A stretch of 64,000 nt of DNA from positions 1,860,001-1,924,000 of the forward strand of contig OZ237735.1 in assembly GCA_965178125.1 (NCBI GenBank), written 5' to 3'. This document shows, piece by piece, positions 1 to 64,000 of the stretch. The position numbers were made by a program, and so were the translations under genes. This DNA is from Bilabrum cf. latius (Eukaryota). The notes under the pieces are model-generated. The model was not told where the DNA came from. It did not search any database and saw only the letters and a program-made list of their open reading frames with translations. Position 1 is the first letter of the stretch. Each line of letters starts with the position of its first letter.

Positions 1-2
1 AC

Positions 3-3000
3 GATCTGGGTCACCTCCTGGAAGATGAGGGCATTCGAGACATCACGGACGAGCTGCTGGACGCCGTGGAGCAGCATGCGGGCCTCTTCAAGGAGCTCGA
101 GGCGAAGGAGGAAAGCGCCAAGGGCGTGACTATTGCCATTGAAGGTTCCATCGAGCACATCCTCCTGGGAGAACACGCGGCGCAGGAGGGGGGGCGTGCC
201 GCGCAGGAGGCGGCAGCTGCAGCCCGCAAGGCCAGGTTAGCTAAAGTGGTCAAGTCTCGAGTCCCCGTCGTCTCCCCGGCCGACATGAAGGTGCCCAAGA
301 CTCTTCGTATCAAGTCGCCTGCCAACCCAACGGTGCACGTGGATATTGACCTGGCCGACGTGCACTCGGACTTTGTCGAGAGACTTGGCGCAATCGACAA
401 GTACCGCGCGCATGCGCAGCTAAATGTCCCAGGAGACCGCCTCATGTTCGCATTGCAGTCCGCCGACATCGCCGAGACGGCAGAATACTATGCCAGTATA
501 CAGAGGACAGTAAACAGGATCGACGCAAGGATGGGGACGGACGCCGGTGCGGGCGCGGCCTGGCTCAGGAAGACCCACGGCATGGATGCGTCGGCATTGC
601 GCACGCAGGAGCAGACGTTCGCGCTGCTGGCAGAGGTCCGGGCCCGTCCCTACCCCACCGGCGAGACGGCATTCCTGCATGCAGACATCCTCAGCGATGC
701 TATTCACAAGGGGCGCGTGGATCCTCAGGATCCAGTCCTCAAGGCGAGAGCGCAGCTCAAGAACCGAATCGGTGCGGTGGGCGGGGATTCGTTCGAACTG
801 GGGCTCCGAGTGCTCACACTGCCCCCAGCCAAGGCTCGATCCGCGAAGCTACGTGATGCTACCGTGAGTCTCTGCGATGCCGAGCGAGAGCTGGACGAGC
901 TGCTGCACCTCAAGCGCGTCATCGATACCGCCGAGATAGCCGGTCTTGACCCTGTTACCTGCCTGCGAAGGGGGGTGCGCACAGATTTCGTTAGCGACCT
1001 TACCATGCCCTCGGACGTGGAAAATTACCTAGCAAAGGCAGTGTAGCGGTCAAACTCTGCGAGGGAGGCGTGGAGGAGGGCGGCGGAGGCGGCGGGTCCC
1101 GGCGCCCTCGCCGATCTCCCAGGGGACGTCCTGGACCGGGCTTACCGGGTCACCGCAATGGACCCCAGCAGCGAGGTGAATCACTTGCTCGAGAGCAGAA
1201 AGCACATGGAGGTGCAGGCACTGAGTAATCCAGGTGTCTTGGGCGAACGTGTGGATCCTGCCGTGCTCTAGAAGCACGCGGGCGTCGGCGGTGCTGCTGG
1301 GGTGATCGCCGATCGCCGGGCGGCACTGATGTAGCGCGCTCAGGCGGGGGGCAGGCAGCTCCAGAGACAGTTGTCCGATTTCGGCGGGTGGGAGAGCATC
1401 AGGTACCAGCTGGGCAGTGTTGACTACCTCGTGTTCCTGCAGGACCTGCAAAAGCAGACCCCGGAATTTTTTGCCGAAGCTCTCATGCAGTTGCCTCGTG
1501 GTCGCACGAATGCGATCGACGAGCTGATCGGAGTCGCAGTGGGAGCGACCGACAGCGCCCGCAAAGCAGCGAGAGAGAAAATCATCCTCGGAGCCGTTGA
1601 ATCTGCGGTACAGACGGTGGGTCTGAACAAGGCACCAAGTCCGCTCTTCTTCGCGGAGAACGTCCAGCTGCTGTCGATTTTGTCCGAAGAAATGACCGCC
1701 GATACTGCCTCCAAGGAGCTTGGCGCTGCTCTGGACACCCTGGGGGATGGCATGAAAGCGCTTCGAAAGGCTGCCAGCGGCAACGCCCTGGACGATGCCT
1801 AGGCGCAGGTCATGGGAGAGGTCATGGCGAGGCTTGAGCATTACGCTTTTATCGGAGGTGTGTCCACGTCGCTGGACAAGGAACTCAAGATGTGTTTGGA
1901 TGACAAGAAATTGCTAACCGAGGTAGTCCGTGCCGCGGAGAAGCCGGGCGGTGAGGACCTGCTGGATCTTGCCGTGGCGCTTCGAGGCGCCAATGGCCTC
2001 TCTGAGGGATTCAAGTATCATCCAGGCCTCCAGGTTCGGCTCGCGAAGCGCGTAGTGTTTGCTGGTGAGGAGCCATCACGATAGGCCGAGCTTTTGGTGC
2101 AGCCGGGGGCACTTGATCGAGTGGCCGCCTTCATGCGGATGCGCGGCGGGTATGGAGCGGAGGATGCCATGGACAGCCTCGTGGGCCTGGCGCTGGAGAA
2201 GGAGGGGCAGCGAGTGGGGCTGGGGCCCGCCATTATGATCACCCCTGTCCACCTGGATGCAGACGTGGTGGACTCCCTCTGGTGGGACGGCCCCGTGGGG
2301 CAGTCTCTCTTAGAGCAGGTGGCCAAGGGGGAGGCAGGCGGCAGCCCCTTTCAGAAGGAGGCGGCGATCCGGCAGATCATCGACGTGACGGGGTGGGCAT
2401 AGCCAATCCTCACGAAAACGCCCGAAACTATCAAGATCATATAGAGCGGGAAGAAGACGTGGACGAGGCTCGTACAGAAGCATGATGACCTTCTTCTCAA
2501 GACGCTCCTCTCACCCACCGACTACCCTGTATTCTAGTGGATGACGCGGAAGCATTGGAGTTTGCGGTACATGTCAGACCGAATGGGGCCCTATCGCACC
2601 CGAGCCGTCAAGCTCCTGAAGAATGAGAGGAGGGCTGAGCTGCTGGCGCAACATCTCCTGCATCCCGAGGATCTTCGGCGGGCGGTGGGGCCCAAAGGCC
2701 TTGCAGACCTGCAGCGACACGCCGATACGGCATGGGGGGCCAGGGCAAGAAGCGCGGCCCGCAAGCAAGCGGAAATCATCCAGCAGCTCGACGAGACGCT
2801 AGCGCAGCTGCGGGATGCCGACCTGAAGCAGGCAGCAAGTGGAGGGCTTGACAGGAGCGCTAAGCTGAACCGTGCGGCCAGGGCCAAGAAGGAAGCAATC
2901 GATCAAGCGGCCAGAATGCAGGCACAGCTGGACGATATTCCCATGATTCCCCGATCCATGTCTATTCAGGCGGACCTTGGGGAGGAGTTAGAGGAGATCA

Positions 3001-6000
3001 CGGTGGACGGGCTCATCAGCACTGGTGTGACGAGGCACGATGACTTGGACATCCTGCCGGTGGTGATGCAATCCGAGATGGTCAACGACAATTTGGCCTA
3101 TAGAGTGTTTTTGACAAAGAGCATCAACTTCGACGTGCCGTTGTCTGAGATCGACAAGGGCTTGCGCAACTTGGCGAAAGCCATGAGAAAAGCGGACGAT
3201 GCCGCCACCGAGGAGATGAGGGCGCAACTGCGGGCCGTCGTGAAGAGGGCCGACGGTGCCCAGGGAACACAGGCACTCATGGAGACTTCTTTTCCCATAT
3301 GGTCAGTCAAGGATGTCCACGACCATACCACGGCAGCGGTGCTCAGCGACTATAAAAACCTCGTTGAGGCTACCGTGGGGTTCCAGACCAACCCATCCGT
3401 GAGAAGCGAGGTCATTGCACAGCTTGCCCTGCGCCGTCCCGTGATGCCGCAGGCAGAGCTCGCCACGGCCTTATCCAAGCTGGATTCGCTGCCCAAGGTC
3501 AAGCAGCTGACGGAGGAGGCAGCGGGAGATATGGAGGCGGCCTTCAAGGCTTTCGACGCCAAGTCTCCAGGGACCCTCACTCGCGAGGAGTTCGATGTCC
3601 TTGCCTCTGCCACAACGAAGGAGGACGCCGCAGCCGCTCTTGGCCCCGCGATCCGCGAGCGGCCGATCTCGGAGTGGCCAGCTTCGGCGCTCATGGACGA
3701 GTCCGGGCAGCTGACGGCGATTGCCGAGCGGGGCCTGCAGCTCTACGACTCGATGCCTTCGACCTTCTTTTTCAACGACCGGTTCGCCCGGCAGGTGGGG
3801 TTTACCGAACGAGACGCCATGTTTCGCGGCCTGGCGGAACCGTTAACCATGGCGCCAGACGGCGTGCTGCTTCAGGCAGATAGACTGGGCGTGAACAAGG
3901 GTAGGTTGGAAAAGCTGGTGGGCAATCATGCCGCCATGGACGAGATGGGAAGCTCTCAGATCGAGCGGCGGGTTGCCGAGTACAACCAAAAGCCCACGAT
4001 GGAGTCGGACGGAGTGCCGCTCGGTACCTTCATGGGCGAATGGTGTGAGGACCACGGCATCGAGCTGGCCGTGGAGGCCGGTGACGAGGCTCGGAAGGCG
4101 GAGCAGGGCGAGGTGTTCATGTGGTGCCAGGCGCTGGACATGCCCATTCCCGAGTCACAGGCGGATTGGGACGACGCAAAGCGCCTATTCCATTCTCTCA
4201 AGCAGGCCAACGAGCGGTACCGCACCATCCTGAGCGACAAGCAGCTGGATTACATCCGTAATACCCCCAAGGAGGAGAAGCTGTCGGCCCTCTTCGACCC
4301 CAGCAACAGCGAGCTGTGCCTTACGAATGGCCAGACGGACGAGCTGCTGGGTAAACTGTCTCACTCTCTATGGCAAACCACGCACGATCTGTTGAACTAT
4401 AGGCAAATGATGCGGACGCTCACTGACGTGGACGCCTACGTTGTGAGCACCGGCGGGCAGTCCTCGAAGTCCGCCTTTGAGCAACTCAAGCGTGCAGGGC
4501 TGACTCGGCAGGAGGTGCGCGGTCGTGGAAACTGCTACTTCGATGCCGTCATGTAGTCGGCCGGTGACATCCAGGACCAGAAGGTTCTCCGTGCCAAGTA
4601 CGTGGAGGCATACAAGCAGGGGGTCGATGCCAAGCTATTGAGGACGAACGAGTTGCGCGACGCATCTTCCGACCTACTGGGACCGTCCTCTAGCCTGGGC
4701 GTCCTCGGCGTGGACGCAAACGCCATGATCCGAGAGATGGATAGGACGGGACTGAAGGCATCGGACGAGAAATATATGGCGGCCGCCCTCGGCCGTCCGT
4801 ATGTCTCGATCCGAGAGCCGGACCTCGTTGATGGCGGCAATATGCAGATTATGGTTTTCAATGCCGATAAGCTGGGCTAGGGACAATCACCGGTCATGGT
4901 GTACATGCAGTCTGGGCACGCCACGGCCGTGGTGGCAGACGACCCAGAGGCGGCCTTCAAGGCGCTGCAGGAGCTGGCGGACGCCGAAAAGGCCGCGAAG
5001 AATGCTGATGAAGCCGTCAAGAAGGCGGGGGGATCGGACGGTGGCAACCCGTCGTTCTTCGAAGGGCAGGAGCCCGTCCCAGAGGGTGAGCTGCAGGACG
5101 CGCTCGAGCACGGGGTGGACGTGGCTGACGTGTCAATAGGCAAGGATGGGGAGCTGGGCGTGGATGTGCAGCGGGGAGACCGGCAGGTCAAAACGCTCAG
5201 TGCAGACGAGGCAGATCTCCCGGTCGAAGGTCCTCTGTCCGCCCACGAGTTCGATCTCAGCGTCGACCCGCACATAGACATGCCTGAGCGACCGCCACAG
5301 GTGCCTCCGAGCCAGCTGCTGCGGCTGTCTGACGATGCAGCGGCGGACGTAACGGCTCTGAGTGCGGCATTGACGAATGTCCCGGCAGAGAGACCTATTC
5401 GGATCGTGGGCATCGGTGGGGGTGATGGAGCAGGGTCGGTAGGATAGGTGTTTGACAATACGGATGCCGTCTCCGAGTTCAACGGACGACTGATCGCCGA
5501 CGTCGACCGCGTGAGTCGCATTGTCGACCACCCAGAGGCCTTTCCTATCCTGCCACATGGCCCCCTCGTGCCTCAGCAGCAGCGGGCGGCGCTGCTCACC
5601 ATCGAGGCCAGATAGCAGCTGGACATAGCGGAGAGATTCCTGGAGGACTTCAATGAGCTGGAGGCCATGTTGGGAGAAGAGGAGGCTGCCTCAATGATGC
5701 TGGTTGAAGGGATGTCTAAGTAGCAGGCCGAGGACCGGGTGAAGGAGTACTCGGCTATTCTGGCTGCGCAATCCAGAGCCCCCAGGTCGTCGGCGATGGG
5801 ACTGGCCACCGATGTGGACGTGGTGTAGCAGGCCATCGCTGACATTCCGGACGATTCAATGTTTCTCAAGCAGGCGGAGCTCTTCGACGATGCTGCCGCT
5901 AAGATCGCGGAGGCAGAGCCGGACGATCCATCCCTGCCCCTCCGGCGGATTACGGAGCTAGGGGAACAGGAGGCGGCGGATGACGAGGTGGGGAAGCGGG

Positions 6001-7730
6001 CACACAATGTGGTTGAGCTGGTCAATATGGAGTGGATGGCGGCAATGGATCTACGGTACGCTCGCTCGCTGGACGAGGCTGCGACCTCGATGGATATGGA
6101 GAACAGCTGGCTCCTTGAGCAGACCTTCTTCGCAGGCGGAGAAGTGGGGGATGCCGCGGATCGGCTGTCGCAGCGGTTCCAGAAGGTGAGGGACTATCGT
6201 GAGGAGGTGCAGTCGATGTCCGCGGAGGAGTGGGCGGCGATATCCGCCCGGTGCAAATCTCAGTATTCCTTGAGCATCGGAGCTCAGGACAGTTTCGTTG
6301 CCAACCAGGACGCACACCAGCAGCTGCTGTCTTGGACGACGCGCAAGGTGCGACAGCTCACGGAGGCCCAGGTGCCCAAGTCGCAGTACCGCGCCCATGC
6401 GAAGCAGACGAACAGCGAACAGGCGGATGACTCAGGGGCACACCATCAGGACATGACGGCAGGCAAGGGCGGGGAGGGGCAAGGAGTAGACCTGCAAACC
6501 AACCACGAGCAGGAGCAGGAGCAGGAGCTCGATACTCCCTCCCTCATCGCCCTAGGGGGCAAGGCCAAGGCAGTGGCTGATGCCCACGGCTAGCTCCAGC
6601 TCCAGCTCGGGCGACACTGGCACTCTCGGCGCTTGAGCTCCAGCGGCGGCAAGTCATCCCACCGCAGGAACAGACATCGGCACCACGGCTCTCTCCGTGC
6701 CACTGCATCTACATCTGCCACTGCATCTGCAAGCACGCAGGCAGTCCATCGACTGGCCTCCAGCGAGGGGGTCACGAGCACGAGCAGGCGGCGGCGGGGT
6801 TACACCGGAGACTGTGTGCACACCAACCTGACAACGTGCCAAGTGCTGGAGCACGACACCAACATCCTGCGACCGGGACAGTTGCTTAAATACCCGCACC
6901 GGCTGATCCAGTAGAACGGGGACGACTACGCCATGCTGTAGGTGCAGCGGAAGTGCAGTCTGGAGCTGTAGTGGCACTACGAGGACTGCATTCTGGGCAT
7001 GGCCTGCACAAGGGAGTGGAAGATGCTGTGGGAGACAACCAGGGGAAACAAGGACTACGACGCCTACGGCTTCATGGACCAGTGCACGCTGGTGTTCGAC
7101 CGCGAGGGGAACCTTTTCCTCGTCAACGGGGTGGGCATGGTCATGTGGAAAACGGACACCATCGGGCTGCGGGGGCCCGTATCGCATCTAGAGGTGCAGG
7201 GCGACGGGAACTTGGTGGTCTACCGCGAGCGGGGCGGGGCCATCTGGAGTACGGAGACGGCGGGGCAGATGAGGAACTACCGGCCCACCGGCGAGTTTGG
7301 CGAGGACTTCGCGCACCTTCGCTACGGCCCCGAGGACCAGCTGTGCGACAAGACATTCAGCGAAGTTTGCGAGGATGCCACGGGGCAACACTTCATAGCG
7401 GCTGGTCAGCGGCTGGACTAGGGTCATTCGCTACGTCTGCGTGACTTCGAGCTCCGGATGCAGGGGGACGGCAACCTGGTGCTGTACTGGCAAGGAAAGA
7501 TGTAGGGGGAGACAGGGACGGACGGTGACGGCGAGGGGCCTTATCGTCTCATCGTAGATGCGTCGGGCCGGGTGATGGTACTATCGCAAAACACGAACGA
7601 GGAGTGGGACGAAGACGGCTTCGTGATGCGCATCGAGTCTCAAGGTAGAAGTGCCATGATGGTCCTGTACAACGGGAAGGACGTGGACCATCTTGGCACG
7701 TGGGAGTTCGCGTACAACCTGCAGAAGTAA
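3..7730 (+). CDS. Giant secreted lectin/OTU-like protein, copy 1 (5'-partial; TAG=Gln)
   Basis: ORF-track pieces at 66, 1371, 1812, 2094, 2541, 4602, 4896, 5859, 6633 and 6999 share one frame and are separated only by TAG; the frame ends at TAA 7728-7730. OTU-like VRGRGNCYFDAV (~4515-4550) with a downstream GH, and C-terminal bulb-lectin motifs VQGDGNLVVY and MQGDGNLVLY. Paralogue of 52793-60489. Confidence 0.85.
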
Positions 7731-8835: not shown

Positions 8836-9912
8836 GAGAGAGAGAAAATAGAGTTTTCGCACGCAATTCAATACCAGAGACAATCCGAGGACTGCCACCA
8901 AAGTAACGCGCACCTTAACAGGGGACCCAGCTGTACCCGCGTTGGCGGAGCCAGTCAGGACCTGAAAAGGCCTCTAAAGAAGTAGTTGGTCTGGTCAAGA
9001 CCGATACATGCCTAGGACCCGTGTCCTAAGCGCATCGCGTTGAGATCTCCTGGGAGTCAGACCAATTCGAACGTACGCAATGAGGGAGCATGCGCAAGGA
9101 AGGCCTGGCGAGGCGTGAGGTATTCAGCCTCTCGCCACCAGACCGCCACATTGTCCGCCTCTAGAACTTGTTGCCTGCTCCAGATCCGGGAGCGTGCTAG
9201 CCTTGCCGTTCCCTTCGCCCAGATGCGTTCTAGCACCTGAAGCTCCTTGCTGAGGGCGCAACGGCCCAGCGTTCCTGCCATCCACTCTCCGACGAACTAG
9301 TTCTCGGAGGGAGTCAGTATGCGTCCGAGCGAGTGGGCTCGGATTGCAAGGTCTCGGGCTGCTAGGCTGCCTGAGGTGAGTTGTGCCGCTACGCACAATT
9401 GGCAGGACTACAACCCCTCGATGGCTCGTCCGAAGCTCTCATTGGCCCTCTGCTACAAGCGTCGGATTGCCCGTCGGCACCGTTCTTGGAGTTGTTCGAG
9501 GGTGCCTTGGACGATTAAGAGCTCCAAGGAGTCTGTGTCCCCTCGGTGTTCTTGTGTCAGCACCTGCTCCGTTTTGACGTGTTCCATCCATAGTGCTCTC
9601 CCCACTGCCGTGGGTGCCCAGGGTACGTCCGTGTGCGTGGCTTCCGCGCGCATCATTTCGGCCTGTACCGAGCGTTCTCCTCTGTGGTGCATGGTCCCTT
9701 CCCGAGGGTAACGCCCAGTGAGCCATCGCAGGATGAGGCGACCATCTCGGCCTCGCCAGGTGCTCCGTGCTGTCGCCGGCATGGCCGAAGGGCCGAGGAT
9801 CCGGAAATTGTCCAAATTGATGCAGCTCTGTAGGTCTTTCATGCCTACAGAATCCTCATCGAACTTTGCCCAGGCGTCTGTCGCTACCGGATGCATCGTC
9901 GGATCTCCTAGT
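8836..9912 (-). mobile_element. 5'-truncated 3' part of a second APE-RT-related non-LTR family (ORF ~9910 to 9057, TAG=Gln)
   Basis: The translation (FRILGPSAM...GRLILRWLTGRYPREGT, ERIWAKG, AHAPSL) aligns by eye with the C-terminus of the 10024-17643 ORF (AFGPGAM...GRRILRIRAGQYPQQGT, ERQWAKG, AHAPHL). Its 3' UTR recurs at 46967-47173. Confidence 0.75.
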
Positions 9913-10023
9913 CGGAGAGAGAATATAATATGTCTGAGTCAAAGCACACACTACCCAACTACAACGACCACCCGGGGCTACTACTATGGCCCAGCTTTGC
10001 ACAAGGCCGGGTCAGGCACGTAC

Positions 10024-10948: not shown

Positions 10949-10980
<32 letters not shown>

Positions 10981-44580: not shown

Positions 44581-44737
44581 TATAATATAGTATATACTAT
44601 AATAATATATTATTTTTAAGTCTAATTAAACGAGATGTCTTAAGCTCGATTCAAATTTGGGCGCCCGAAATTGCGGTAATATTATAGCTATTCAAGATAT
44701 ATTTTCGCAATTCTGGGCGTTTAGGCGTATTGACTTT

Positions 44738-45145: not shown

Positions 45146-45344
45146 AATATATTATGATACAAGATTTATTAACTTAGTATATTGTCGGTAAGACTTGTAA
45201 ATTAGTTATTAAATAGGTGAAGACTACCAAGACATATCATAAGACAAAATCATTTGTTAAGGACTAGTTAGAAGAAGTACTCAATACATTGATACAAGTT
45301 AAAGGACATTCTAAATATGAACACAAGATCAAATGGACCACTTC

Positions 45345-54100: not shown

Positions 54101-57100
54101 ATCGCCGGGCGGCACTGCTGTAGCGCGCTCAGGCGGGGGGCAGGCAGCTCCAGAGACAGTTGTCCGATTTCGGCGGGTGGGAGAGCATCAGGTACCAGCT
54201 GGGCAGTGTTGACTACCTCGTGTTCCTGCAGGACCTGCAAAAGCAGACCCCGGAATTTTTCGCCGAAGCTCTCATCCAGTTGCCTCGTGGTCGCACGAAC
54301 GCGATCGACGAGCTGATCGGAATCGCAGTGGGAGCGACCGACAGCGCCCGCAAAGCAGCGAGAGAGAAAATCATCCTTGGAGCCGTTGAATCTGCTGCAC
54401 AGACGGTGGGTCTGAACAAGGCACCAAGTCCGCTCTTCTTCGCTGAGAACGTCCAGCTGCTGGCGATTGTGTCCGAAGAAATGACCGCCGATACTGCCTC
54501 CAAGGAGCTTGGCGCTGCCCTGGACACCCTGGGGGAAGGCATGAAAGCGCTTCGAAAGGCTGCCAGCGGCAACGCCCTGGACGATGCCTAGGCCCAGGTC
54601 GTGGGAGAGGTCATGGCGGAGCTTCGGTATTGCGCTAACTTGGGGGGCGTTTCCAAGCCACTAAGTAGGGAACTCAAGATGTGGGTGGGTGACGAGAATT
54701 TGCTTACCGAGGTAGTCCGTGCCGCGGAGAAGCCGGGCGGTGAGGACCTGCTGGATCTTGCCGTGGCGCTTCGAGGCCCCAATGGCCTCTCTGATGCCTT
54801 GGTCAAATACCCAGACATCGAGTTTCGGCTCTCGAAGCGCGTTCTGTTCGCGGATGAGGCGGCGCCACGACAGGCCGAGCTTTTGGTGCAGCCGGGGGCA
54901 CTTGATCGAGTGGCCGCCTTCATGCGGATGACTCGGAGCGAGGATGGATCGAAAAGCGTCATGGACAGCCTCGTGGGCCTGGCGCTGGAGAAGGAGGGGC
55001 AGCGAGTGGGGCTGGGGCCCGCCATTATGACCACCCCTGTCCACCTGGATGGAGTGGTGGAGGCCTCCCTCTGGTGGGACGGCCCCGTGGGGCAGTCTCT
55101 CCTAGAGCAGGTGGCCAAGGGGGAGGCAGGCGGCAGCCCCTTTCAGAAGGCGGCGGCGATCCGGCAGATCATCGACGCGAAGGGGTGGGCAAGGTTTGCC
55201 TGCACGAAGCGCCCTGCGAGAAAGATCATATAGAAGGGGGAGAAGACATGGACGAGGCTCGTGCAGAAGCATGATGACCTTCTTCTCAAGACGCTCCTCT
55301 CACCCACCGACTACCCCATATTCTAGTGGCTGCAGCGGGAGCATTGGAGTTTGCGGTACATGTCGGGCAGTATGGGGCCATACCGCACCCGAGCCGTCAA
55401 GCTCCTGAAGAATGAGAGGAGGGCTGAGCTGCTGGCGCAACATCTCCTGCATCCCGAGGATCTTCGGCGGGCGGTGGGGCCTAAAGGCCTTGCAGACCTG
55501 CAGCGACACGCCGAGAAGGCATGGGGGGCCAGGGCAAGAAGTGCGGCCCGCAAGCAGGCGGAAATCATCCAGCAGCTCGACGAGACGCTAGCGCAGCTGC
55601 GGGATGCCGACCTGAAGCAGGCAGCAAGTGGAGGGCTTGACAGGAGCGCTAAGCTGAACCGTGCGGCCAGGGCCAAGGAGGAAGCAATCGATCAAGCGGC
55701 CAGAATGCAGGCACAGCTGGACGATATTCCCATGATTCCCCGATCCATGTCTATTCAGGCGGACCTCGGGGAGGGGTTAGAGGAGCTCACGGTGGACGGG
55801 CTCATCGGTACTGGTGTGACGAGGTACGATAACGTGGACATCCTGCCGGTGGTGATGCAATCCAAGATGGTCAAGGACAAGGTGGCATTGATGATGTCGC
55901 GGGAGGGCATTCACTTCGACGTGCCGTTGTCTGAGATCGACAGGGACTTGCGCAACTTAGCGAAAGCCATGAGAAAAGCGGACGATGCCGCCACCGAGGA
56001 GATGAGGGAGCAACTGCGGGCCGTTGTGAAGAGGGCCGACGGTGCCCAGGGAACACAGGCACTCATGGAGACTTCTTTTCCCATATGGTCAGTCAAGGAT
56101 GTCTACGACCATACCACAGCAGCGGTGCTCAGCGACTATAAAGACCTCGTTAGGGCTACCCTGGGGTTCCAGACCAACCCATACGTGAGAAGCGAGGTCA
56201 TTGCACAGCTTGCCCTGCGCCGTCCCGTGATGCCGCAGGCAGAGCTCGCCACGGCCCTATCCAAGCTGGATTCGCTGCCCAAGGCCAAGCAGCTGGTGGA
56301 GGAGGCAGCGGGAGATATGGAGGCGGCCTTCAAGGCTTTCGACGCCAAGTCTCCAGGGACCCTCACACGCGAGGAGTTCGATGTCCTTGCCTCTGCCACA
56401 ACGAAGGAGGACGCTGCAGCCGCTCTTGGCCCCGCGATCCGCGAGCGGCCGATCTCGGAGTGGCCAGCTTCGGCGCTCATGGACGAGTCCGGGCAGCTGA
56501 CAGCGATTGCCGAGCGGGGCCTGCAGCTCTACGACTCGATGCCTTCGACCTTCTTTTTCAACGACCGATTCGCCCGGCAGGTGGGGTTTACCGAACGAGA
56601 CGCCATGTTTCGCGGCCTGGCAGAACCGTTCACCATGGTGCCAGACAGCGTGCTGCTACAGGCAGATGGACTGGGCGTGGACCAGGGCATGTTGGAAAAG
56701 CTGGTGGGCAGTCATGCCGCCATGGACGAGATGGGAAGCTCTCAGATCGAGCGGCGGGTCGCCGAGTATAACCAAAAGCCCACGATGGAGTCGGACGGAG
56801 TGCCGCTCGGTACCTTCATGGGCGAATGGTGTGAGGACCACGGCATCGAGCTGGCCGTGGAGGCCGGTGACGAGGCTCGGAAGGCGGAGCAGGGCGAGGT
56901 GTTCATGTGGTGCCAGGCGCTGGACATGCCCATTCCCGAGTCACAGGCGGATTGGGACGACGCAAAGCGCCTATTCCATTCTCTCAAGCAGGCCAACGAG
57001 CGGTACCGCACCATCCTGAGCGACAAGCAGCTAGATTACATCCGTAATACCCCCAAGGAGAAGAAGCTGTCGGCCCTCTTCGACCCCAGCAACAGCGAGC

Positions 57101-60100
57101 TGTGCCTTACGAATGGCCAGACGGACGAGCTGCTGGGTAAGCTGTCTCACTCTCTATGGCAAACCACGCACGACCGAAAGGGCCATTGTCTAATGATGTA
57201 GACGCTCGAGAAGTTGGACGCCTACGTTGTGAGTACCGGCGGGCAGTCCTCGAAGTCCGCCTTTGAGCAACTCAAGCGTGCAGGGCTGACTCGGCAGGAG
57301 GTGCGCGGTCGCGGAAACTGCTACTTCGATGCTGTCATGCAGTCGGCCGGTGACATCCAGGACCAGAAGGTTCTCCGTGCCAAGTACGTGGAGGCATACA
57401 AGCAGGGGGTCGATGCCAAGCTATTGAGGACGAACGAGTTGCGCGACGCATCTTCCGACCTCCTGGGACCGTCCTCTAGCCTGGGCGTCCTCGGCGTGGA
57501 CGCAAACGCCATGATCCGAGAGATGGATAGGACGGGACTGAAGGCATCGGACGAGAAATATATGGCGGCCGCCCTCGGCCGTCCGTACGTCTCGATCCGA
57601 GAGCCGGACCTCGTTGATGGCGGCAATATGCAGATTATGGTTTTCAATGCCGATAAGCTGGGCAAGGGACAGTCACCGGTCATGGTGTACTTACAGACGG
57701 GGCATGCCACGGCCGTGGTGGCAGACGACCCAGAGGTGGCCTTCAAGGCGCTGCAGGAGCTGGCGGACGCCGAAAAGGCCGCGAAGAATGCTGACGAAGC
57801 GGCCAAGAAGGCGGGGGGATCGGACGGTGGCAAGCCGGCGTTCTTCGAAGGGCAGGAGCCCGTCCCAGAGGGTGAGCTGCAGGACGCGCTCGAGCACGGG
57901 GTGGACGTGGCTGACGTGTCAATAGGCAAGGATGGGGAGCTGGGCGTGGATGTGCAGCGGGGAGACCGGCAGGTCAAAACGCTCAGTGCAGACGAGGCAG
58001 ATCTCCCGGTCGAAGGTCCTCTGTCCGCCCACGAGTTCGATCTTAGCGTCGACCCGCACATAGACATGCCTGCGCGACCGCCACAGGTGCCTCCGAGCCA
58101 GCTGCTGCGACTGTCTGACGATGCAGCGGCGGACGTAACGGCTCTGAGTGCGGCATTGACAAATGTCCCGGCAGAGAGACCTGTAAGGATCGTGGGCATC
58201 GGGGGGGGTGATGGAGCGGGGTCGGTAGGGAAGGTGTTTGACAATACGGATGCCGTCTCCGAGTTCAACGGGCGACTGATCGCCGACGTCGACCGCGTGA
58301 GTCGCATTGTCGACCACCCGGAGGCCTTTCCTATCATGCCACAGGGCCCCCTCGTGCCTCAGCAGCAGCGGGCCGCGCTGCTCGCCATCGAGGCCAGACA
58401 GCAGCTGGACATAGCGGAGAGGGTCCTGGATGACTACAAGTAGCTGGAGGCCGCATTCGGGGAAGAGGAGGCTGCCTCAATGATGCTGGTGGAAGGGATG
58501 TCAAAGTAGCAGGCCCAGGACCGGGTGAAGGAGTACTCGGCTGTTCTGGCTGCGCAATCTAGAGCCCCCGGGTCGTCGGCGATGGGACTGGCCACCGATG
58601 TCGATGTGGTGTAGCAGGCCATCGCTGACATTCCGGACGATACCATGTTTCTCAGGCAGGCGGAGCTCTTCGACGATGCTGCCGCTAAGATCGCAGAGGC
58701 AGAGCCGGACGATCCATCGATGCTCCTCCGGCGGAGGACGGAGCTAGGGGAACAGGAGGCGGTGGGCGATGAGGTGGGCAAGCGGGCACGCAATGTGGTT
58801 GAGCTGGCCAATATGGAGTGGATGGCGGCAATGGATCTACGGTACGCTCGCGAGCTGGACGATGCTGCGACCACGATGGATCTGGACAACAGCTGGCTCC
58901 TTGAGCAGACCTTCTTCGCAGGCGGAGAAGTGGGGGATGTCGCGGATCGGCTGTCGCAGCGGTTCCAGAAGGTGAGGGACTATCGTGAGGAGGTGCAGTC
59001 GATGTCCGCGGAGGAGTGGGCGGCAGTATCCGCCCGGTGCAAATCTCAGTATTCCTTGAGCATCGGAGCTCAGGACAGTTTCGTTGCCAACCAGGACGCA
59101 CACCAGCAGCTGCTGGCTTGGACGACGCGCAAGGTGCGACAGCTCACGGAGGCCCAGGTGCCCAAGTCGCAGTACCGCGCCCATGCGAACCAGACGAACA
59201 GCGAACAGGCGGATGACTCAGGAGCACCCCAAAGCAAGGGCGGGGGGGAGCAAGGAGTAGACCTGCAAACCAACCAGGAGCAGGAGCTCGATACCCCCTC
59301 CCTCATCGCCCTAGGAGGCAAGGCCAAGGCAATGGCTGATGCTCATGGCTTGCTCCAGCTCTAGCTCGGGCGACACGGGCACTCTCGGCACTCGAGCTAC
59401 AGCGGCGGCAAGTCATCCCACCGCAGGAACAGACACCGGCACCGCGGCTCTCTCAGTGCATCTGCATCTGTATCTGTATCTGTATCTACAAGCACGTAGA
59501 CAGTCCATCGACTGGCCTCCAGCAAGGGGGGGACGAGCACGAGCAGTCGGCGACGGGGCTACATCGGGAACTGTGTGCACACCAACATGACAACGTGTCA
59601 AGTGTTGGAGCACGACACTAACATCCTGCGACCGGGGCAGCTGCTTAAATACCCGCACCGGCTGATCCAGTAGAACGGGGACGACTTCGCCATGCTGCAG
59701 GTGCAGCGGAAATGTAGCCTGGAGCTGTAGTGGCACTACGAGGACTGCATTCTGGGCATGGCCTGCACAAGGGAGTGGAAGATGCTGTGGGAGACAACCA
59801 GGGGAAACAAGGACTACGACGCCTACGGCTTCATGGACCAGTGCACGCTGGTGTTCGACCGAGAGGGGAACCTTTTCCTCGTCAACGGGGTGGGCATGGT
59901 CATGTGGAAAACGGACACTATCGGGCTGCGGGGGCCCGTGTCGCATCTTGAGGTGCAGGGCGACGGGAACCTGGTGGTCTACCGCGAGCGGGGCGGGGCC
60001 ATCTGGAGTACGGAGACGGCGGGGCAGATGAGGAACTACCGGCCCACCGGCGAGCTTGGCGAGGACTTCGCGCACCTTCGCTACGGCCCGGAGGACCAGC

Positions 60101-60489
60101 TGTGCGACAAGACTTTCAGCGACGGGTGCGAGGATGCCACGGGGCAGCACTTCATAGCGGCAGGTCAGCGGCTGGACTAGGGGCATTCGCTACATCTGCG
60201 TGACTTTGAGCTCCGGATGCAGGGGGACGGCAACCTGGTGCTGTACTCGGAAGGAAAGATGTAGTGGGAGACAGGGACGGACGGTGAAGGCGAGGGGCCC
60301 TATCGTCTCATCGTAGATGCGTCGGGCCGGGTGATGGTACTATCGCAAAACACGAACGAGGAGTGGGACGAAGACGGCTTCGTGATGCGCATCGAGTCTG
60401 AAGGTAGGAGTGCCATGATGGTCCTGTACAACGGGAAGGACGTTGACCATCTTGGCACGTGGGAGTTCGCGTACAACCTGCAGAAGTAA
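48156..60489 (+). CDS. Giant secreted lectin/OTU-like protein, copy 2 (~4,064 aa; exons 48156-48431, 48571-60489)
   Basis: Signal-peptide-like MNVPACVTIFALLGVQA; phase-0 GTAAGG...GCAG intron 48432-48570; bulb-lectin motifs MQSDGRLVL, MQTDGNLVL, LQSDGNAVL; hydrophobic helices ~50640-51200; OTU-like GNCYFDAV; C-terminal lectin repeats; all exon-2 track ORFs share one frame; TAA 60487-60489. Confidence 0.85.
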
Positions 60490-60673: not shown

Positions 60674-63600
60674 TCAGCACAATACTATTTGCCTGAACGC
60701 CAGCCATAGCACGGCAATTGCCAGCGCGACCACCAGCATGGCCAGCACCGCGGCTGGCGACCCGATTGCCCTCTGCCCTCTCCTGTCCAGCTCCGACCGG
60801 ATCCGCTCTATCGTTACGTTCCTCCTGAGTGCCTGCCAGCTGTACATGGACTCCCCAAGGGCTAGCAGGTCTTGCTTTCCATCCACCGCATCACCGCTAG
60901 GCGACGGTGGGCGAGCAGTTGCAGTGCTCCGGGAACCAGCTGTAGATCGGACCCCGCGCGACCTGGCTTGGCCCGGCTCAACGACTACCTCAGAGGAGGC
61001 ATTCCCTGACTCAATATCGGGCGCAGAGGGGTCCATCAAGCCGCGGCGTGGGGCCGGGATTTTTGTGGGAGTTGCAGCCGCAATGCTTGGCAGTCGGGGT
61101 TGAAGTCCCGAGATTTCCCTGCTATCGGCTGGTTTCTGCTTCTCTGCTTGCAACTGAGCTGACTGTCGCTCCGATGACTTCACTTGAGCCGCGTGCTCAC
61201 CTCGTAGCTTCTGCAGTTCTGCCTATAAATCTTTCAGCTGTGATTGCAGGCCCATTACATGCCGCTCGCGCTCCTGTGCGGAAGCAGATGCTTCCGAAAG
61301 CTGCTTGTCCAGGCTTTTGCACACCTCTGCCGACTTGGACGCCCGGGTGGATTGCTGCTTAAGTTCCTAATGCATAGCATCCCGCTCTTTAGACAAACGA
61401 ACCGCGCCTTGCTTCGTCGTGTCCAGCTCCTCCTCAGTGGCGGCGAGGCTTCGCCTACACGCGGCCAAATCGGCTGCAGCAGTGAGCTGTGAAGCCTTGG
61501 CTCGGTCAAGCTGCCCTTGGAGAGACTTTACAGACTCACTGCTGGAGCTCGCTTGTCTAAGGGCATCACACGCAGCCTCAGTGTGCTGCAGCTTATCACG
61601 AATAGAAATCACGCTTTCATTCAGCTGCTGGTTCTCACTTGATAGCCTGGAGATCTAGGCTTCTGCCTCGATCTGTACTTGCTCCAGCTGACTGCGCTTG
61701 GCCGCTGCTTCTTCGTACGACCTTTCAAGATCTTCGACACGCCTTCTAGCCTATGCAAGTGCTTTCTTGGTCTTCTGCCCATGCTACTGCGAGCTACCGC
61801 GCAAGTCTGCGACAGTGGCTTGCGCCTACAGCATTTCCTCCTGCAATGACGCCACCTGACCCTCCAGCTCCTGCTGGCGAGACTTGCCGCCAGACTCAGA
61901 CTCACGGGCTGCCGACAGCTCCTCCTGCAATGACGCCACCTGACCCTCCAGCTCCTGCTGGCGAGACCCGGCCTCACGGGCTGCCGACAGCTCCTCCTGC
62001 AATGATGCCACCTGACCCTCCAGCTCCTCCTGACGAGACTTGCCGCCAGACTCAGACTCACGGGCTGCCGACAGCTCCTCCTGCAATGACGCCACCTGAC
62101 CCTCCAGCTCCTGCTGGCGAGACCCGGCCTCACGGGCTGCCGACAGCTCCTCCTGCAATGACGCCACCTGACCCTCCAGCTCCTGCTGGCGAGACCCGGC
62201 CTCACGGGCTGCCGACAGCTCCTCCTGCAATGACGCCACCTGACCCTCCAGCTCCTGCTGGCGAGACCCGGCCTCACGGGCTGCCGACAGCTCCTCCTGC
62301 AATGACGCCACCTGACCCTCCAGCTCCTCCTGACGAGACTTGCCGCCAGACTCAGACTCACGGGCCGCCGACAGCTCCTCCTGCAATGACGCCACCTGAC
62401 CCTCCAGCTCCTGCTGGCGAGACCCGGCCTCACGGGCTGCCGACAGCTCCTCCTGCAATGACGCCACCTGACCCTCCAGCTCCTCCTGACGAGACTTGCC
62501 GCCAGACTCAGACTCACGGGCTGCCGACAGCTCCTCCTGCAATGACGCCACCTGACCCTCCAGCTCCTGCTGGCGAGACCCGGCCTCACGGGCTGCCGAC
62601 AGCTCCTCCTGCAATGACGCCAACTGATCCTCCAGCTCCTCCTGACGAGACCCGGCCTCACGGGCTGCCGACAGCTCCTCCTGCAATGACGCCACCTGAC
62701 CCTCCAGCTCCTCCTGACGAGACTTGCCGCCAGACTCAGACTCACGGGCCGCCGACAGCTCCTCCTGCAATGACGCCACCTGACCCTCCAGCTCCTGCTG
62801 GCGAGACCCGGCCTCACGGGCTGCCGACAGCTCCTCCTGCAATGACGCCACCTGACCCTCCAGCTCTTCCTGGCGAGACCCGGCCTCACGGGCTGCCGAC
62901 AGCTCCTCCTGCAATGACGCCACCTGACCCTCCAGCTCCTCCTGACGAGACCCGGCCTCACGGGCTGCCGACAGCTCCTCCTGCAATGACGCCACCTGAC
63001 CCTCCAGCTCCTCCTGACGAGACTTGCCGCCAGACTCAGACTCACGGGCCGCCGACAGCTCCTCCTGCAATGACGCCACCTGACCCTCCAGCTCCTGCTG
63101 GCGAGACCCGGCCTCACGGGCTGCCGACAGCTCCTCCTGCAATGACGCCACCTGACCCTCCAGCTCCTGCTGGCGAGACTTGCCGCCAGACTCAGACTCA
63201 CGGGCTGCCGACAGCTCCTCCTGCAATGACGCCACCTGACCCTCCAGCTCTTCCTGGCGAGACCCGGCCTCACGGGCTGCCGACAGCTCCTCCTGCAATG
63301 ACGCCACCTGACCCTCCAGCTCCTCCTGACGAGACCCGGCCTCACGGGCTGCCGACAGCTCCTCCTGCAATGACGCCACCTGACCCTCCAGCTCCTCCTG
63401 ACGAGACTTGCCGCCAGACTCAGACTCACGGGCTGCCGACAGCTCCTCCTGCAATGACGCCACCTGACCCTCTAGCTTGTGCTGCAATTCCAGCTTGCTC
63501 TTGGAATGATCGTCGATCTCAGCCTTCAGTTTCCGTATAGCATTGGCAGCATTATCGATATCTGATTGTAGCCGAGTAGCCTCCGCTTCAGATGCCTTGG

Positions 63601-64000
63601 CCCGATCTGTCGCAGCATCTCGTTCCCCTTCAAGCTCTGACAACCGGGCACTGGCAGATTTCCAATCCGCTGAGCCTGCTGACTTCACATCCGTAATCTC
63701 TCGTCTGGCATCACGCAGATTGCTCCTTAGCTCCTCTTGCTCAGTTGCACCCGCCTGAATTAATTTCTCGAGATTTTGGATGTTCTCCATGAGTTCCTGC
63801 TGACGAGACTTGCCGCCAGACTCAGACTCACGGGCCGCCGACAGCTCCTCCTGCAATGACGCCACCTGACCCTCCAGCTCCTCCTGACGAGACTTGCCGC
63901 CAGACTCAGACTCACGGGCCGCCGACAGCTCCTCCTGCAATGACGCCACCTGACCCTCCAGCTCCTCCTGACGAGACTTGCCGCCAGACTCAGACTCACG
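60674..64000 (-). CDS. Long coiled-coil protein with tandem repeats and C-terminal membrane anchor (5'-partial)
   Basis: ORFs 61826-63949, 61367-61612 and 60674-61183 join through TAG; ends AAVLAMLVVALAIAVLWLAFRQIVLC-TGA. Confidence 0.85.
61835..64000 (-). repeat. Coding tandem repeat of 72-nt and 84-nt units (interrupted ~63475-63790)
   Basis: (EAG|ESESGGK)SRQ(Q/E)ELEGQVASLQEELSAAR units. Confidence 0.95.

What the first reader, a model, noticed from the sequence alone, without database searches (positions are those of the whole stretch)
1..64000. TAG=Gln code shared by host genes, three retroelement classes and an integrated virus
Seen: TAG/CAG interchange between paralogues (2082 vs 54871; 4554 vs 57340); TAG mixed into a CAG poly-Q tract (10951-11007); TAG at the conserved Q of the integrase PQSNG motif and inside the ATPase Walker A; the long genes end in TAA or TGA. 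Established: most nuclear stop-to-Gln reassignments cover both TAA and TAG, so TAG alone is rare. Inference: the virophage is long adapted to this host lineage, and its helper giant virus probably shares or tolerates the code.
Basis: partly seen in the sequence, partly recalled or inferred. Interest (0 to 1): 0.85.

Follow-up and report, generated by a model that had tools for sequence, protein, structure and literature searches.

The report
TAG read as glutamine, host and virophage
In this stretch of a GC-rich eukaryote's nuclear DNA the stop codon TAG is used as a glutamine codon by host genes, by resident retroelements and by an integrated virophage, a rare code variant that the virus has fully adopted.

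Summary
With TAG read as sense, the longest frames grow from 1016/724/235 to 2643/4004/942 codons. Making TAA or TGA sense does not do this. In coding frames TAA and TGA occur only as the terminal stop, whereas TAG occurs 6-22 times per gene.

A Codetta-like test used profiles of distant homologues of two virophage genes, with 18 TAG sites. It gives Gln 12.6 nats against Lys 2.7, and 0 of 20000 random site sets reach that score. For host DNA the amino acid rests on weaker evidence: a CAG/TAG poly-Q tract, paralogue differences (6 of 12 changed TAG sites are CAG) and one TAG>CAG allele flanked by two synonymous changes.

The AT-rich 25.8-kb element is a mavirus-like virophage with near-identical ~1.5-kb inverted ends. 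TAG makes up 35% of its Gln codons, in step with its base composition, so it is old in this code.

Two retroelement classes are verified, not three. tRNA-Gln(CUA), eRF1 and the helper giant virus could not be examined because no genome is held. UAG=Gln with UAA as stop is already known in a few protists.

The parts
48090..60489 (+). Host nuclear gene. Exon 1 runs from ATG 48090 to about 48429, a 139-nt GTAAG..CAG intron spans 48430-48568, then a 12-kb exon ends at TAA 60487-60489. It has 22 in-frame TAG in the long exon and 2 in exon 1, and bulb-lectin domains.
   Evidence: ORF of 4004 aa only with TAG as sense. B_lectin E=1.4e-10. The spliced joint is seen in contigs of X6 and X7 only and keeps the frame. 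In frame: 22 TAG, and a single TAA, the terminal stop.
3..7730 (+). Paralogue of the 3' two-thirds of the host gene. It runs off the window's 5' end, has 20 in-frame TAG and ends in TAA.
   Evidence: Of 2563 aligned codons, 2246 are identical. Of 24 aligned TAG sites, 12 are TAG/TAG and 6 are TAG/CAG.
9712..17643 (+). Non-LTR (LINE-like) retroelement ORF of 2643 codons with 17 in-frame TAG, ending in TGA. It includes the CAG/TAG poly-Q tract at 10951-11007.
   Evidence: RVT_1 E=7.5e-16. Weak Exo_endo_phos_2 E=0.047. TAG positions. Poly-Q.
21106..46879 (.). Integrated mavirus-like virophage, about 25.8 kb and about 30% GC. The ~1.5-kb inverted ends were reported as 21098-22640 / 45345-46887. 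The true ends are CTGTTATCC...GGATAACAG.
   Evidence: Inverted repeat I1. GC profile. An empty-site paralogue at 18030-18130 fixes the junctions.
23186..25984 (+). Virophage primase-polymerase/helicase, 932 aa, 11 TAG.
   Evidence: Prim-Pol E=3.1e-13. 896 homologues at E<=1e-3. TAG decodes to Q.
28091..29977 (-). Virophage major capsid protein, 628 aa, 6 TAG.
   Evidence: Mavirus MCP 6g45 E=1.5e-15. MCP_V20_C E=3.4e-6.
30020..30946 (-). Virophage penton (minor capsid) protein, 308 aa, 5 TAG.
   Evidence: Mavirus minor capsid protein 6g41 E=1.3e-12. Sputnik 3j26_N E=4.1e-5.
31875..32942 (-). Virophage P-loop ATPase, 355 aa from ATG 32942, 6 TAG. One of them (32595-32597) lies inside Walker A.
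   Evidence: Weak AAA_10 and AAA_22 hits. The motif G-x-AGAGKS is seen in the translation. TAG positions.
31307..31855 (-). Probable virophage cysteine protease, 182 aa, 3 TAG.
   Evidence: Only a weak Peptidase_C57 hit, E=0.0063. No PDB match. Its position between the penton and ATPase genes fits.
42031..43686 (-). Virophage rve integrase with C-terminal chromodomain, 551 aa, 12 TAG. This includes 42763-42765 in the 'NP-Q-SNG' motif.
   Evidence: rve E=1e-7, Chromo E=6.5e-7. Alignments. Decoding.
40123..41902 (-). GC-rich Ngaro-like tyrosine-recombinase retroelement inserted in the virophage. Its split direct repeats are 40123-40252 = 40455-40584 and 40279-40454 = 41727-41902. The YR ORF is 40625-41887 with 4 TAG. 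This copy has no RT.
   Evidence: Repeats D17 and D18. Phage_integrase E=2.2e-4. Homologues P0174 and P0175 carry PF00589. Longer copies exist in runs, as contigs of 5651 and 4666 nt that end in this part.
60674..64000 (-). Host coiled-coil protein with 72/84-nt tandem repeats. It runs off the window, has 6 TAG and ends in TGA.
18565..20490 (-). GC-rich ORF of 641 aa with 2 TAG. No family is assigned.
   Evidence: No Pfam hit below E=0.1.

Best explanation
The window is nuclear DNA of a GC-rich eukaryote whose cytoplasmic translation reads UAG as glutamine and keeps UAA and UGA as stops.

Shown:
- TAG is a sense codon in an expressed, spliced host gene and its paralogue, in a non-LTR retroelement, in a Ngaro-like element, and in 18 of 20 genes of an integrated mavirus-like virophage.
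- In the virophage genes the residue that fits TAG sites is Gln.
- TAA and TGA are excluded from coding frames and end every gene.

Inferred, not shown:
- The host makes a tRNA-Gln with anticodon CUA, which pairs with UAG but not UAA.
- Its eRF1 has lost or weakened UAG recognition, as argued for Iotanema in Panek 2017 (section 9 read).

The window carries no tRNA gene. The virophage and the retroelements are therefore translated by the host's apparatus and simply use its code.

The virophage's TAG usage is at compositional equilibrium. Its lineage has therefore replicated in hosts with this code for a long time. Any helper giant virus must at least avoid relying on UAG as a stop; this last step is inference.
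For: 1. ORF structure.
- TAG as sense gives frames of 2575, 2643 and 4004 codons in host DNA and 942 in the virophage. These carry 20, 17, 22 and 11 TAG, against maxima of 1016, 724 and 235 under the standard code.
- Controls with TAA or TGA as sense do not open these frames.

2. Stop usage.
- In-frame counts of TAA/TGA/TAG are 1/0/22 (host gene), 0/1/17 (LINE), 1/0/11 (primase) and 0/1/6 (MCP). The single TAA or TGA is the terminal stop in each.
- The off-frames hold 8-80 TAA and 12-73 TGA.

3. Amino acid, virophage.
- A profile of 149 primase-helicase homologues (30-38% identical by the search table) places all 11 TAG sites. The log-odds sum is Q 7.84 against K 1.71. 39 of 43 control codons decode correctly. 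3 TAG sites occupy 3 of the only 7 Q-dominated columns out of 937 (P=6.6e-5).
- A profile of 18 distant integrase homologues places 7 of 12 TAG sites. It gives Q 4.74 against R 1.15, with 24 of 28 controls correct.
- Combined over 18 sites: Q 12.58, K 2.67, R 1.37, E 0.35. 0 of 20000 random site sets reach the Q score. The mean Q log-odds per site is 0.70 at TAG, 0.51 at CAA/CAG (29 sites) and -0.30 elsewhere (1138 sites).

4. Close relatives.
- P0023 (86% identical) has Q at 8 of 11 TAG sites. This matches the 18 of 26 seen at the query's own CAA/CAG sites.
- P0003 and P0004 have Q in 19 of 24 cells.

5. Host DNA.
- The poly-Q tract.
- TAG is the commonest partner of changed CAG codons between the paralogues, 6 of 15.
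- Position 49012 is TAG>CAG in contigs of three runs, next to AAC>AAT and ATC>ATT.

6. The gene is real. Contigs of X6 and X7 cover 48100-60489 and carry a frame-preserving GT..AG splice.

7. Adaptation.
- Virophage: TAG 79, CAG 8, CAA 136; TTG 35, CTG 3.
- Host: TAG 48, CAG 377, CAA 54; TAG:CAG 0.13 against TTG:CTG 0.26.

8. No tRNA gene in the window.
Against: - No tRNA-Gln(CUA) or eRF1 gene could be looked for. No genome is held and the window has no tRNA.
- For host genes the amino acid is not shown by conserved domains. Of the 12 paralogue sites where TAG changed, 6 are not CAG (AAG x2, AGG, CGG, GAG, TTG). TAG<->CAG is also the expected transition on mutational grounds alone.
- TAG sites are less conserved between paralogues (12 of 24) than CAG sites (103 of 118).
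- In the YR element only 3 of 10 homologue residues at the 4 TAG sites are Q.
- At individual sites distant homologues often favour K, E, D or L.
- The close relatives P0003, P0004 and P0023 may themselves have been translated with TAG=Q. The database holds the window's own proteins in that form, so their Q residues are not independent evidence.
- That X6 and X7 are RNA is the tool's guess, supported here only by the splice.
- Whether TAG is retained at each site in those contigs could not be read, because only 40 of 518 differences were listed.
Confidence: 0.9

Rival explanations
1. TAG is a sense codon but stands for another amino acid, such as Lys, Glu, Arg or Leu. UAG is Leu in the rhizarian exLh and in some phyllopharyngean ciliates.
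For: At single sites the profiles favour K, E, D or L/I. In one search that is 8 of 11 primase sites, and site 680 favours L/I. The paralogues show TAG against AAG (2), GAG (1) and TTG (1).
Against: The summed log-odds are Q 12.58 against K 2.67, R 1.37 and E 0.35; Leu is not among the six best-scoring residues. TAG sits in a CAG poly-Q run. It also occupies the Q of the integrase NPQS motif.
Confidence: 0.05
2. TAG has a dual, context-dependent meaning: sense inside genes but still a stop at some gene ends, as with the ambiguous codes of some ciliates and Blastocrithidia. Alternatively it is read through only partially.
For: It cannot be excluded from one window. 4 virophage genes have a TAG within 6 codons of the TAA/TGA stop, against 1.66 expected. 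This would fit former or occasional TAG stops.
Against: That excess is not significant (P=0.088). The integrase relatives P0003 and P0004 continue one residue past the penultimate TAG site and end where this gene ends. With 11-22 TAG per gene, partial read-through would give almost no full-length protein.
Confidence: 0.04
3. The TAG-bearing frames are decayed pseudogenes or dead mobile elements, and TAG is an ordinary stop.
For: The window is rich in repeats and mobile elements. The Ngaro-like copy lacks RT.
Against: Decay would scatter all three stops and frameshifts. Here only TAG occurs in frame, over 4004, 2643 and 932 codons. 12 TAG sites are shared by paralogues whose frames both stay open. 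The virophage's ~1.5-kb inverted ends are nearly identical, differing only in the first few bases of the reported arms, and 20 ORFs are compact. The host gene is covered by spliced contigs.
Confidence: 0.005
4. The DNA reads TAG but the mRNA is edited U-to-C to CAG, so the code itself is standard.
For: TAG and CAG differ by exactly that change. The per-site state in RNA contigs could not be read.
Against: In the two runs with the spliced form, T>C places do not exceed C>T places by anything like the 24 TAG sites covered (X6 50 against 44, X7 57 against 53). The one TAG>CAG difference listed (49012) is also present in run X1, which lacks the splice, so it is an allele. Editing would also have to act on the virophage and retroelement transcripts. 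From my own knowledge, not from a call, no nuclear system of this kind is known.
Confidence: 0.01
5. The recoding belongs to the virus rather than the host, as in crAss-like phages that bring their own suppressor tRNA (code 15).
For: TAG is far more frequent among Gln codons in the virophage (35%) than in host genes (10%). TAG=Gln phages with standard-code hosts are known (PMC9523058, abstract start seen).
Against: GC-rich host genes and host-resident retroelements carry 17-22 in-frame TAG each. No tRNA gene lies in the virophage or anywhere else in the window. The difference in frequency follows base composition (TTG:CTG proxy).
Confidence: 0.005

Closest known systems
UAG=Gln nuclear code with UAA and UGA as stops: Iotanema spirale (Panek et al. 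2017, PMC5304391), Hartmannula sinica and Trochilia petrani (McGowan et al. 2024, PMC11687900)
   Same: Only UAG is reassigned, and to glutamine. UAA stays a stop: 15 of 20 virophage genes end in TAA.
   Different: Those organisms are an anaerobic fornicate and ciliates. This is a 58-64% GC genome with non-LTR and Ngaro-like elements and integrated virophages. The host could not be placed taxonomically, so whether it is a further independent lineage is open. The tRNA and eRF1 were not examined here.
UAA+UAG=Gln codes (many ciliates, hexamitin diplomonads, oxymonads, some ulvophytes, Amoeboaphelidium; listed in Panek 2017, Background passage read)
   Same: A stop codon is reassigned to Gln, presumably through a mutated tRNA-Gln.
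   Different: Here TAA is strictly excluded from coding frames, even in 30% GC virophage genes where it occurs 14-80 times in each off-frame.
Endogenous mavirus-like elements (EMALEs) with Ngaro insertions in Cafeteria burkhardae (Hackl et al. 2021, PMC8547959, passages read)
   Same: An AT-rich virophage with inverted ends sits in a GC-rich host genome. It has an rve integrase and is interrupted by a GC-rich Ngaro-type element with A1-[ORF]-B1A2B2 split direct repeats. MCP and penton are homologous to those of mavirus.
   Different: That paper holds no occurrence of 'genetic code', 'TAG' or 'amber'. Here every long virophage gene needs TAG as sense. The Ngaro-like copy is only 1.8 kb and lacks RT. 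MCP similarity to mavirus is distant (E=1.5e-15).
TAG=Gln (code 15) bacteriophages such as crAss-like phages (PMC9523058, abstract start seen)
   Same: A virus whose genes are open only if TAG is read as Gln.
   Different: Those phages differ in code from their hosts and bring their own means of recoding. Here the virus matches its host's code and carries no tRNA.
Metagenomic virophage with an ochre-suppressor tRNA (Paez-Espino et al. 2019, PMC6905037, passage read)
   Same: A hint in print that virophages can live in hosts with reassigned stop codons.
   Different: That case is an anticodon-TTA tRNA on a metagenomic contig, with the host's code only conjectured. Here the recoded codon is UAG, it is seen in the genes themselves, and the host DNA is attached.

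Membership tests
Nuclear code with UAG=Gln and UAA/UGA=stop | In-frame TAG in intact protein-coding genes | tested here: met
   6-22 TAG per gene in frames of 628-4004 codons. 18 of 20 virophage ORFs carry TAG.
Nuclear code with UAG=Gln and UAA/UGA=stop | TAG sites align to glutamine in homologues | tested here: met
   For virophage genes, 18 sites give Q 12.58 against K 2.67 nats, with 0 of 20000 random sets reaching the score. For host genes the evidence is only indirect.
Nuclear code with UAG=Gln and UAA/UGA=stop | TAA and TGA are kept as terminators | tested here: met
   They occur in frame only as the final codon and are common in the off-frames. All 26 ORFs checked end in TAA or TGA. TAA-sense and TGA-sense controls give no longer genes.
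Nuclear code with UAG=Gln and UAA/UGA=stop | tRNA-Gln with anticodon CUA | not testable with these tools
   No tRNA in the window. No genome is held.
Nuclear code with UAG=Gln and UAA/UGA=stop | eRF1 N-domain change that weakens UAG recognition | not testable with these tools
   eRF1 is not in the window and no genome is held.
Virophage (mavirus-like) | Double-jelly-roll major capsid protein of virophage type | tested here: met
   Mavirus MCP 6g45 E=1.5e-15 over residues 68-540. Pfam MCP_V20_C scores 27.0 bits, at the cut-off of 27.
Virophage (mavirus-like) | Penton (minor capsid) protein | tested here: met
   Mavirus 6g41 E=1.3e-12. Sputnik 3j26_N E=4.1e-5.
Virophage (mavirus-like) | FtsK/HerA-type packaging ATPase | tested here: inconclusive
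   Only AAA_10 and AAA_22 hits below the Pfam cut-offs. Walker A is present. The word-based search found only the window's own protein.
Virophage (mavirus-like) | Cysteine maturation protease | tested here: inconclusive
   Peptidase_C57 E=0.0063, below the cut-off. No PDB match.
Virophage (mavirus-like) | Dependence on a giant virus | not testable with these tools
   No giant-virus sequence in the window.
Ngaro/DIRS-order retrotransposon | Split direct repeats A1-[ORFs]-B1A2B2 | tested here: met
   On the minus strand: 41902-41727, ORF, 40584-40455, 40454-40279, 40252-40123. Both repeat pairs are 100% identical. The layout is as in Hackl 2021 (passage).
Ngaro/DIRS-order retrotransposon | Tyrosine recombinase | tested here: met
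   Phage_integrase E=2.2e-4, below the cut-off. Homologues at 48-63% identity include two with PF00589.
Ngaro/DIRS-order retrotransposon | Reverse transcriptase and RNase H | tested here: not met
   The 1.8-kb copy holds only the YR ORF. Contigs of 5651 and 4666 nt in runs X5 and X7 extend beyond it, so longer copies exist elsewhere. This copy is a deleted derivative.
Non-LTR (LINE-like) retrotransposon | Reverse transcriptase domain in a long single ORF | tested here: met
   RVT_1 E=7.5e-16 at residues 1836-2048 of 2643.
Non-LTR (LINE-like) retrotransposon | APE-type endonuclease upstream of RT | tested here: inconclusive
   Exo_endo_phos_2 E=0.047.

The most novel reading that the evidence does not exclude
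The host belongs to a eukaryotic lineage not yet on record as using UAG=Gln with UAA/UGA stops. If so, it is a further independent origin of this rare decoupled code, in a GC-rich, transposon- and virophage-laden genome. Its whole parasite community, namely endogenous virophages, their presumed giant-virus helper, and Ngaro and LINE elements, has evolved inside that code. The code would then act as a barrier that ties these viruses to the host lineage. This would be the first virophage, and by implication the first giant virus-virophage-host triad, documented under a variant nuclear code.
Probability: 0.35. Interest if true: 0.8.

Novelty: new member of a known kind. Interest (0 to 1): 0.62.

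Why it matters
Changes that separate UAG from UAA in nuclear codes were unknown until 2017 and are still few (Panek 2017; McGowan 2024). Each new case tests how a tRNA(CUA) and eRF1 can tell the two codons apart.

Here the same code is seen in three layers at once: host genes, resident retroelements and an integrated virophage. This gives a natural read-out of how long parasites have been confined to a recoded host. The virophage's TAG usage is at compositional equilibrium.

It also makes a concrete prediction. The helper giant virus cannot rely on TAG as a stop and probably uses it for Gln.

In practice, gene callers run with the standard code would shatter every long gene in this region, so annotation of this genome and of its virophages needs a TAG=Gln table.

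My searches of the held library found no paper that describes a virophage using a reassigned stop codon. The nearest is a remark about an ochre-suppressor tRNA in a metagenomic virophage.

Tried and rejected
- **Whole genome:** none is held, so there was no search for tRNA-Gln(CUA) or eRF1.
- **Relatives' DNA:** sought so as to see TAG<->CAA/CAG changes directly. Every attempt found nothing:
  - MCP in viral contigs.
  - The primase alignment in metagenome contigs and viral contigs.
  - MCP by tblastn in the phage collection.
  - The hairpin motif in viral contigs and metagenome contigs.
- **ATPase word search:** returned only the window's own protein.
- **Raw-emission decoding:** mis-decoded even CAA as Lys because of the Lys-rich background. 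It was replaced by log-odds scoring.
- **TAG near gene ends:** tested as a relic of former TAG stops. 4 seen against 1.66 expected, P=0.088, not significant.
- **Sequencing runs:**
  - No RNA holder is listed on record.
  - X6 and X7 are only guessed to be RNA.
  - They give no cover over virophage positions 42502-46503, which says nothing about silence or absence.
  - Per-site letters at the TAG codons could not be read, since only 40 of 518 differences were listed.
- **ORF 18565-20490:** no family found.
- **Host candidates:** Halocafeteria (47% GC, no Ngaro) and Cafeteria (no code change mentioned) were considered as contexts and fit poorly or not demonstrably. The host's identity was left open.
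- **Third retroelement class:** not found. The rve-chromodomain integrase is the virophage's own.


Full report
**Layout of the window**

The window has three parts.
- Positions 1-21097 and 46888-64000 are 56-64% GC.
- Between them lies a block of about 30% GC. Its inverted ends were reported as 21098-22640 and 45345-46887.
- A 1.8-kb GC-rich insert sits at 40123-41902.

**Check of the observation**

All cited sites are as described.
- 2082 is TAG against 54871 CAG, and 4554 is TAG against 57340 CAG.
- 10951-11007 is a run of 15 CAG and 1 CAA with TAG at 10960, 10981 and 10990. It lies in the frame of a 2643-codon ORF whose reverse-transcriptase domain lies 1400 codons downstream.
- The integrase TAG at 42763-42765 sits in 'GNP-x-SNGAVER'. 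The ATPase TAG at 32595-32597 sits in the P-loop 'G-x-AGAGKS'.
- All 26 ORFs checked end in TAA or TGA.

**Is TAG a sense codon?**

Under the standard code the longest stop-to-stop frames are 1016, 724 and 235 codons in the three parts.
- With TAG open they become 2643 and 2575, 4004, and 942.
- With TAA open, or TGA open, the top frames stay at 1016-1058, 724-780 and 235-381.

In the coding frames of the host gene, the LINE ORF, the virophage primase and the MCP, TAA and TGA occur only as the last codon.
- Each off-frame nonetheless holds 8-80 TAA and 12-73 TGA.
- TAG occurs 22, 17, 11 and 6 times in frame.

Decay would not spare two stop codons and hit only the third, so the frames are coding and TAG is sense. 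TAA and TGA are stops.

**Is the GC-rich DNA really host nuclear DNA?**

Contigs of two runs (X6 and X7, guessed to be RNA) cover 48100-60489.
- They skip 48430-48568, a 139-nt GTAAG..CAG intron. The two other runs keep it.
- The splice joins the frame of ATG 48090 to the 12-kb frame.

The gene is therefore a spliced nuclear gene with 24 in-frame TAG.

**Which amino acid?**

I built a Codetta-like test because no profile library is available offline.
- The primase-helicase search found 896 homologues at E<=1e-3.
- A profile of 149 of them (30-38% identical; the 86% relative was left out) was aligned to the query with TAG as X.
- Raw emission products were biased to Lys and mis-read even CAA, so I used log-odds against the profile's composition.
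  - 39 of 43 control codons with at least 5 sites decode correctly.
  - TAG gives Q 7.84 against K 1.71 nats.
  - Three of the 11 TAG sites fall in three of the only seven Q-dominated columns out of 937 (P=6.6e-5).
- A second profile from 18 distant integrase homologues places 7 of 12 TAG sites. It gives Q 4.74 against R 1.15, with 24 of 28 controls correct.
- Together: Q 12.58, K 2.67, R 1.37, E 0.35. None of 20000 random site sets reaches the Q score. TAG sites look as Gln-like as the query's own CAA/CAG sites, at 0.70 against 0.51 nats per site, with -0.30 elsewhere.

Close relatives agree.
- P0023 has Q at 8 of 11 sites.
- P0003 and P0004 have Q in 19 of 24 cells.
- They may themselves have been translated with TAG=Q, since the database stores the window's own proteins that way. 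I give them no independent weight.

Individual sites often favour K, E, D or L in distant homologues. The signal is in the sum.

**Host-side evidence for Gln is weaker**

Between the two paralogues (2563 aligned codons), 12 of 24 TAG sites are shared.
- Of the 12 that differ, 6 are CAG, 2 AAG, and one each AGG, CGG, GAG and TTG.
- TAG is the commonest partner of changed CAG codons, 6 of 15, ahead of CAA at 3.
- TAG<->CAG is also the expected transition, and TAG sites are less conserved than CAG sites (12 of 24 against 103 of 118).

One listed polymorphism, 49012 T>C, turns TAG into CAG.
- It travels with AAC>AAT and ATC>ATT, both synonymous.
- It is seen in a minority contig of X1 and in X6 and X7.

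In the Ngaro-like recombinase, three homologues show Q at 3 of 10 residues facing the four TAG sites.

**Rivals**
- Another amino acid is disfavoured by about 10 nats.
- Pseudogenes are excluded by the stop pattern.
- U-to-C editing is unlikely. In X6 and X7, T>C places exceed C>T places by only 6 and 4, against 24 TAG sites covered, and the one TAG>CAG site is also present in X1. The per-site state could not be read, since only 40 of 518 differences were shown.
- Virus-borne recoding is excluded by the host genes and by the absence of any tRNA gene.
- A dual stop/sense role cannot be excluded from one window. TAG within six codons of the stop occurs 4 times against 1.66 expected (P=0.088).

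**What the AT-rich block is**
- Its MCP matches the mavirus MCP (6g45, E=1.5e-15).
- Its penton matches the mavirus and Sputnik minor capsid proteins (E=1.3e-12 and 4.1e-5).
- It also encodes a Prim-Pol/helicase, an rve integrase with chromodomain, a P-loop ATPase and a probable cysteine protease. The last two have only weak matches.
- A paralogous empty site at 18030-18130 shows the exact insertion point. The element's ends are CTGTTATCC...GGATAACAG, with a CTG overlap.
- The reported inverted-repeat arms differ only in their first few bases, which are host flank.

It is a mavirus-like virophage integrated in a host repeat.

**Retroelements**

Two classes are verified.
- The 9712-17643 ORF: RVT_1 E=7.5e-16, with a weak endonuclease hit.
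- The insert at 40123-41902. It has the A1-[ORF]-B1A2B2 split repeats of Ngaro elements (layout per Hackl 2021) and a tyrosine recombinase. It has no RT. Contigs of 5651 and 4666 nt in the runs show that longer copies exist.

No third class was found.

**Adaptation of the virophage**

| Compartment | Codons | TAG | CAG | CAA | TAG:CAG | TTG:CTG |
|---|---|---|---|---|---|---|
| Virophage, 20 ORFs | 5699 | 79 | 8 | 136 | 79:8 (9.9) | 35:3 (11.7) |
| Host, 3 genes | 7657 | 48 | 377 | 54 | 0.13 | 0.26 |

- In the virophage, 18 of 20 ORFs carry TAG, and TAG is 35% of Gln codons. In the host genes it is 10%.
- TTG:CTG is a pair that differs by the same first-base T/C and serves as a neutral proxy.
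- In both compartments TAG behaves as an ordinary synonymous codon at compositional equilibrium. This requires long residence in this code.

The helper giant virus is not in the window. That it shares or tolerates the code follows only from the fact that it would be translated by the same ribosomes.

**Comparison with what is known**
- UAG-only reassignment to Gln is on record for Iotanema spirale (Panek 2017, abstract and section 9 read) and for two phyllopharyngean ciliates (McGowan 2024, abstract read).
- The expected mechanism is a tRNA-Gln(CUA) plus altered eRF1 (Panek 2017, section 9). Neither could be sought here.
- The combination of virophage and Ngaro insert mirrors Cafeteria burkhardae (Hackl 2021, passages). 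That text has no occurrence of 'genetic code', 'TAG' or 'amber'.
- Four searches found no paper describing a virophage with a reassigned stop codon. Paez-Espino 2019 notes an ochre-suppressor tRNA in a metagenomic virophage as a possible sign of host recoding.

**Verdict**
- The code variant itself is a known kind, and this is a further member in an unplaced host.
- The virophage sharing it is, as far as my searches reach, not described.
- The molecular basis and the host's identity remain open.

Noticed in passing
window 21411-46574 (22 copies, e.g. 27048-27104): A 57-nt motif, GCCC[GC]AAATTGCG, about 31 AT-rich nt, then GCAATTCTGGGCG, occurs 22 times and only in the virophage. Shuffles give 0 matches. 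There are 5 copies in each inverted end; the rest lie between genes, often 40-90 nt upstream of a start. It folds into a hairpin of -22.4 kcal/mol, z=-4.3. It may be a promoter, a terminator or polyadenylation hairpin, or a protein-binding site read by the helper virus. It was not found in viral or metagenome contigs.
   Followed up: partly
window 18030-18130 against 21072-21115 and 46870-46960: An uninterrupted paralogue of the virophage's insertion site lies in the same window. It fixes the element's ends at CTGTTATCC...GGATAACAG with only a 3-nt CTG overlap. This is shorter than the 5-6 bp duplications I recall for mavirus; that figure is from memory, not from a call.
   Followed up: partly
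window 48430-48568: A 139-nt GTAAG..CAG intron is removed in contigs of runs X6 and X7 only. It joins an upstream exon (ATG 48090, with a hydrophobic N-terminus) to the 12-kb exon.
   Followed up: yes
window 41976-45355 against 49063-54260: In run X1 the contigs over the virophage integrase and neighbouring genes have word depths of 274-342. The contig over the host gene has 31.6, and in X5 the figures are 13-14 against 4. The virophage therefore seems to be present in roughly ten (X1) or three (X5) times as many copies as the host gene. Several different loose ends at 46877 fit multiple insertion sites. The tool warns that summed depths are not copy numbers.
   Followed up: no
window 61733-63556 (minus-strand gene 60674-64000): A host coiled-coil protein is built of at least 26 tandem 72/84-nt units ('SRQEELEGQVASLQEELSAAREAG...'), some 96-99% identical. 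It has a hydrophobic C-terminal anchor.
   Followed up: no
window 8845-9040 = 46979-47174; 17868-18065 = 20910-21107; 18517-18714: The virophage sits inside a dispersed host repeat. Copies of that repeat also precede the LINE ORF and flank the unassigned ORF 18565-20490. They share a stretch that translates as 'RRENIICLSQSTHYPTTTTT'.
   Followed up: no
window 11400-11440 and 4520-4560 / 57306-57346: Both the LINE ORF ('ADGYCLIDSL') and the large host protein ('GRGNCYFDAV') contain a motif that I recall as resembling the catalytic Cys box of OTU proteases. Pfam gave no OTU hit on these stretches, so this is only a remembered likeness.
   Followed up: partly
database proteins P0001, P0002: The protein database already holds this window's ATPase and integrase translated with Q at every TAG, on a 48.6-kb contig. 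Some gene-calling pipeline has therefore applied a TAG=Gln table to this DNA.
   Followed up: no
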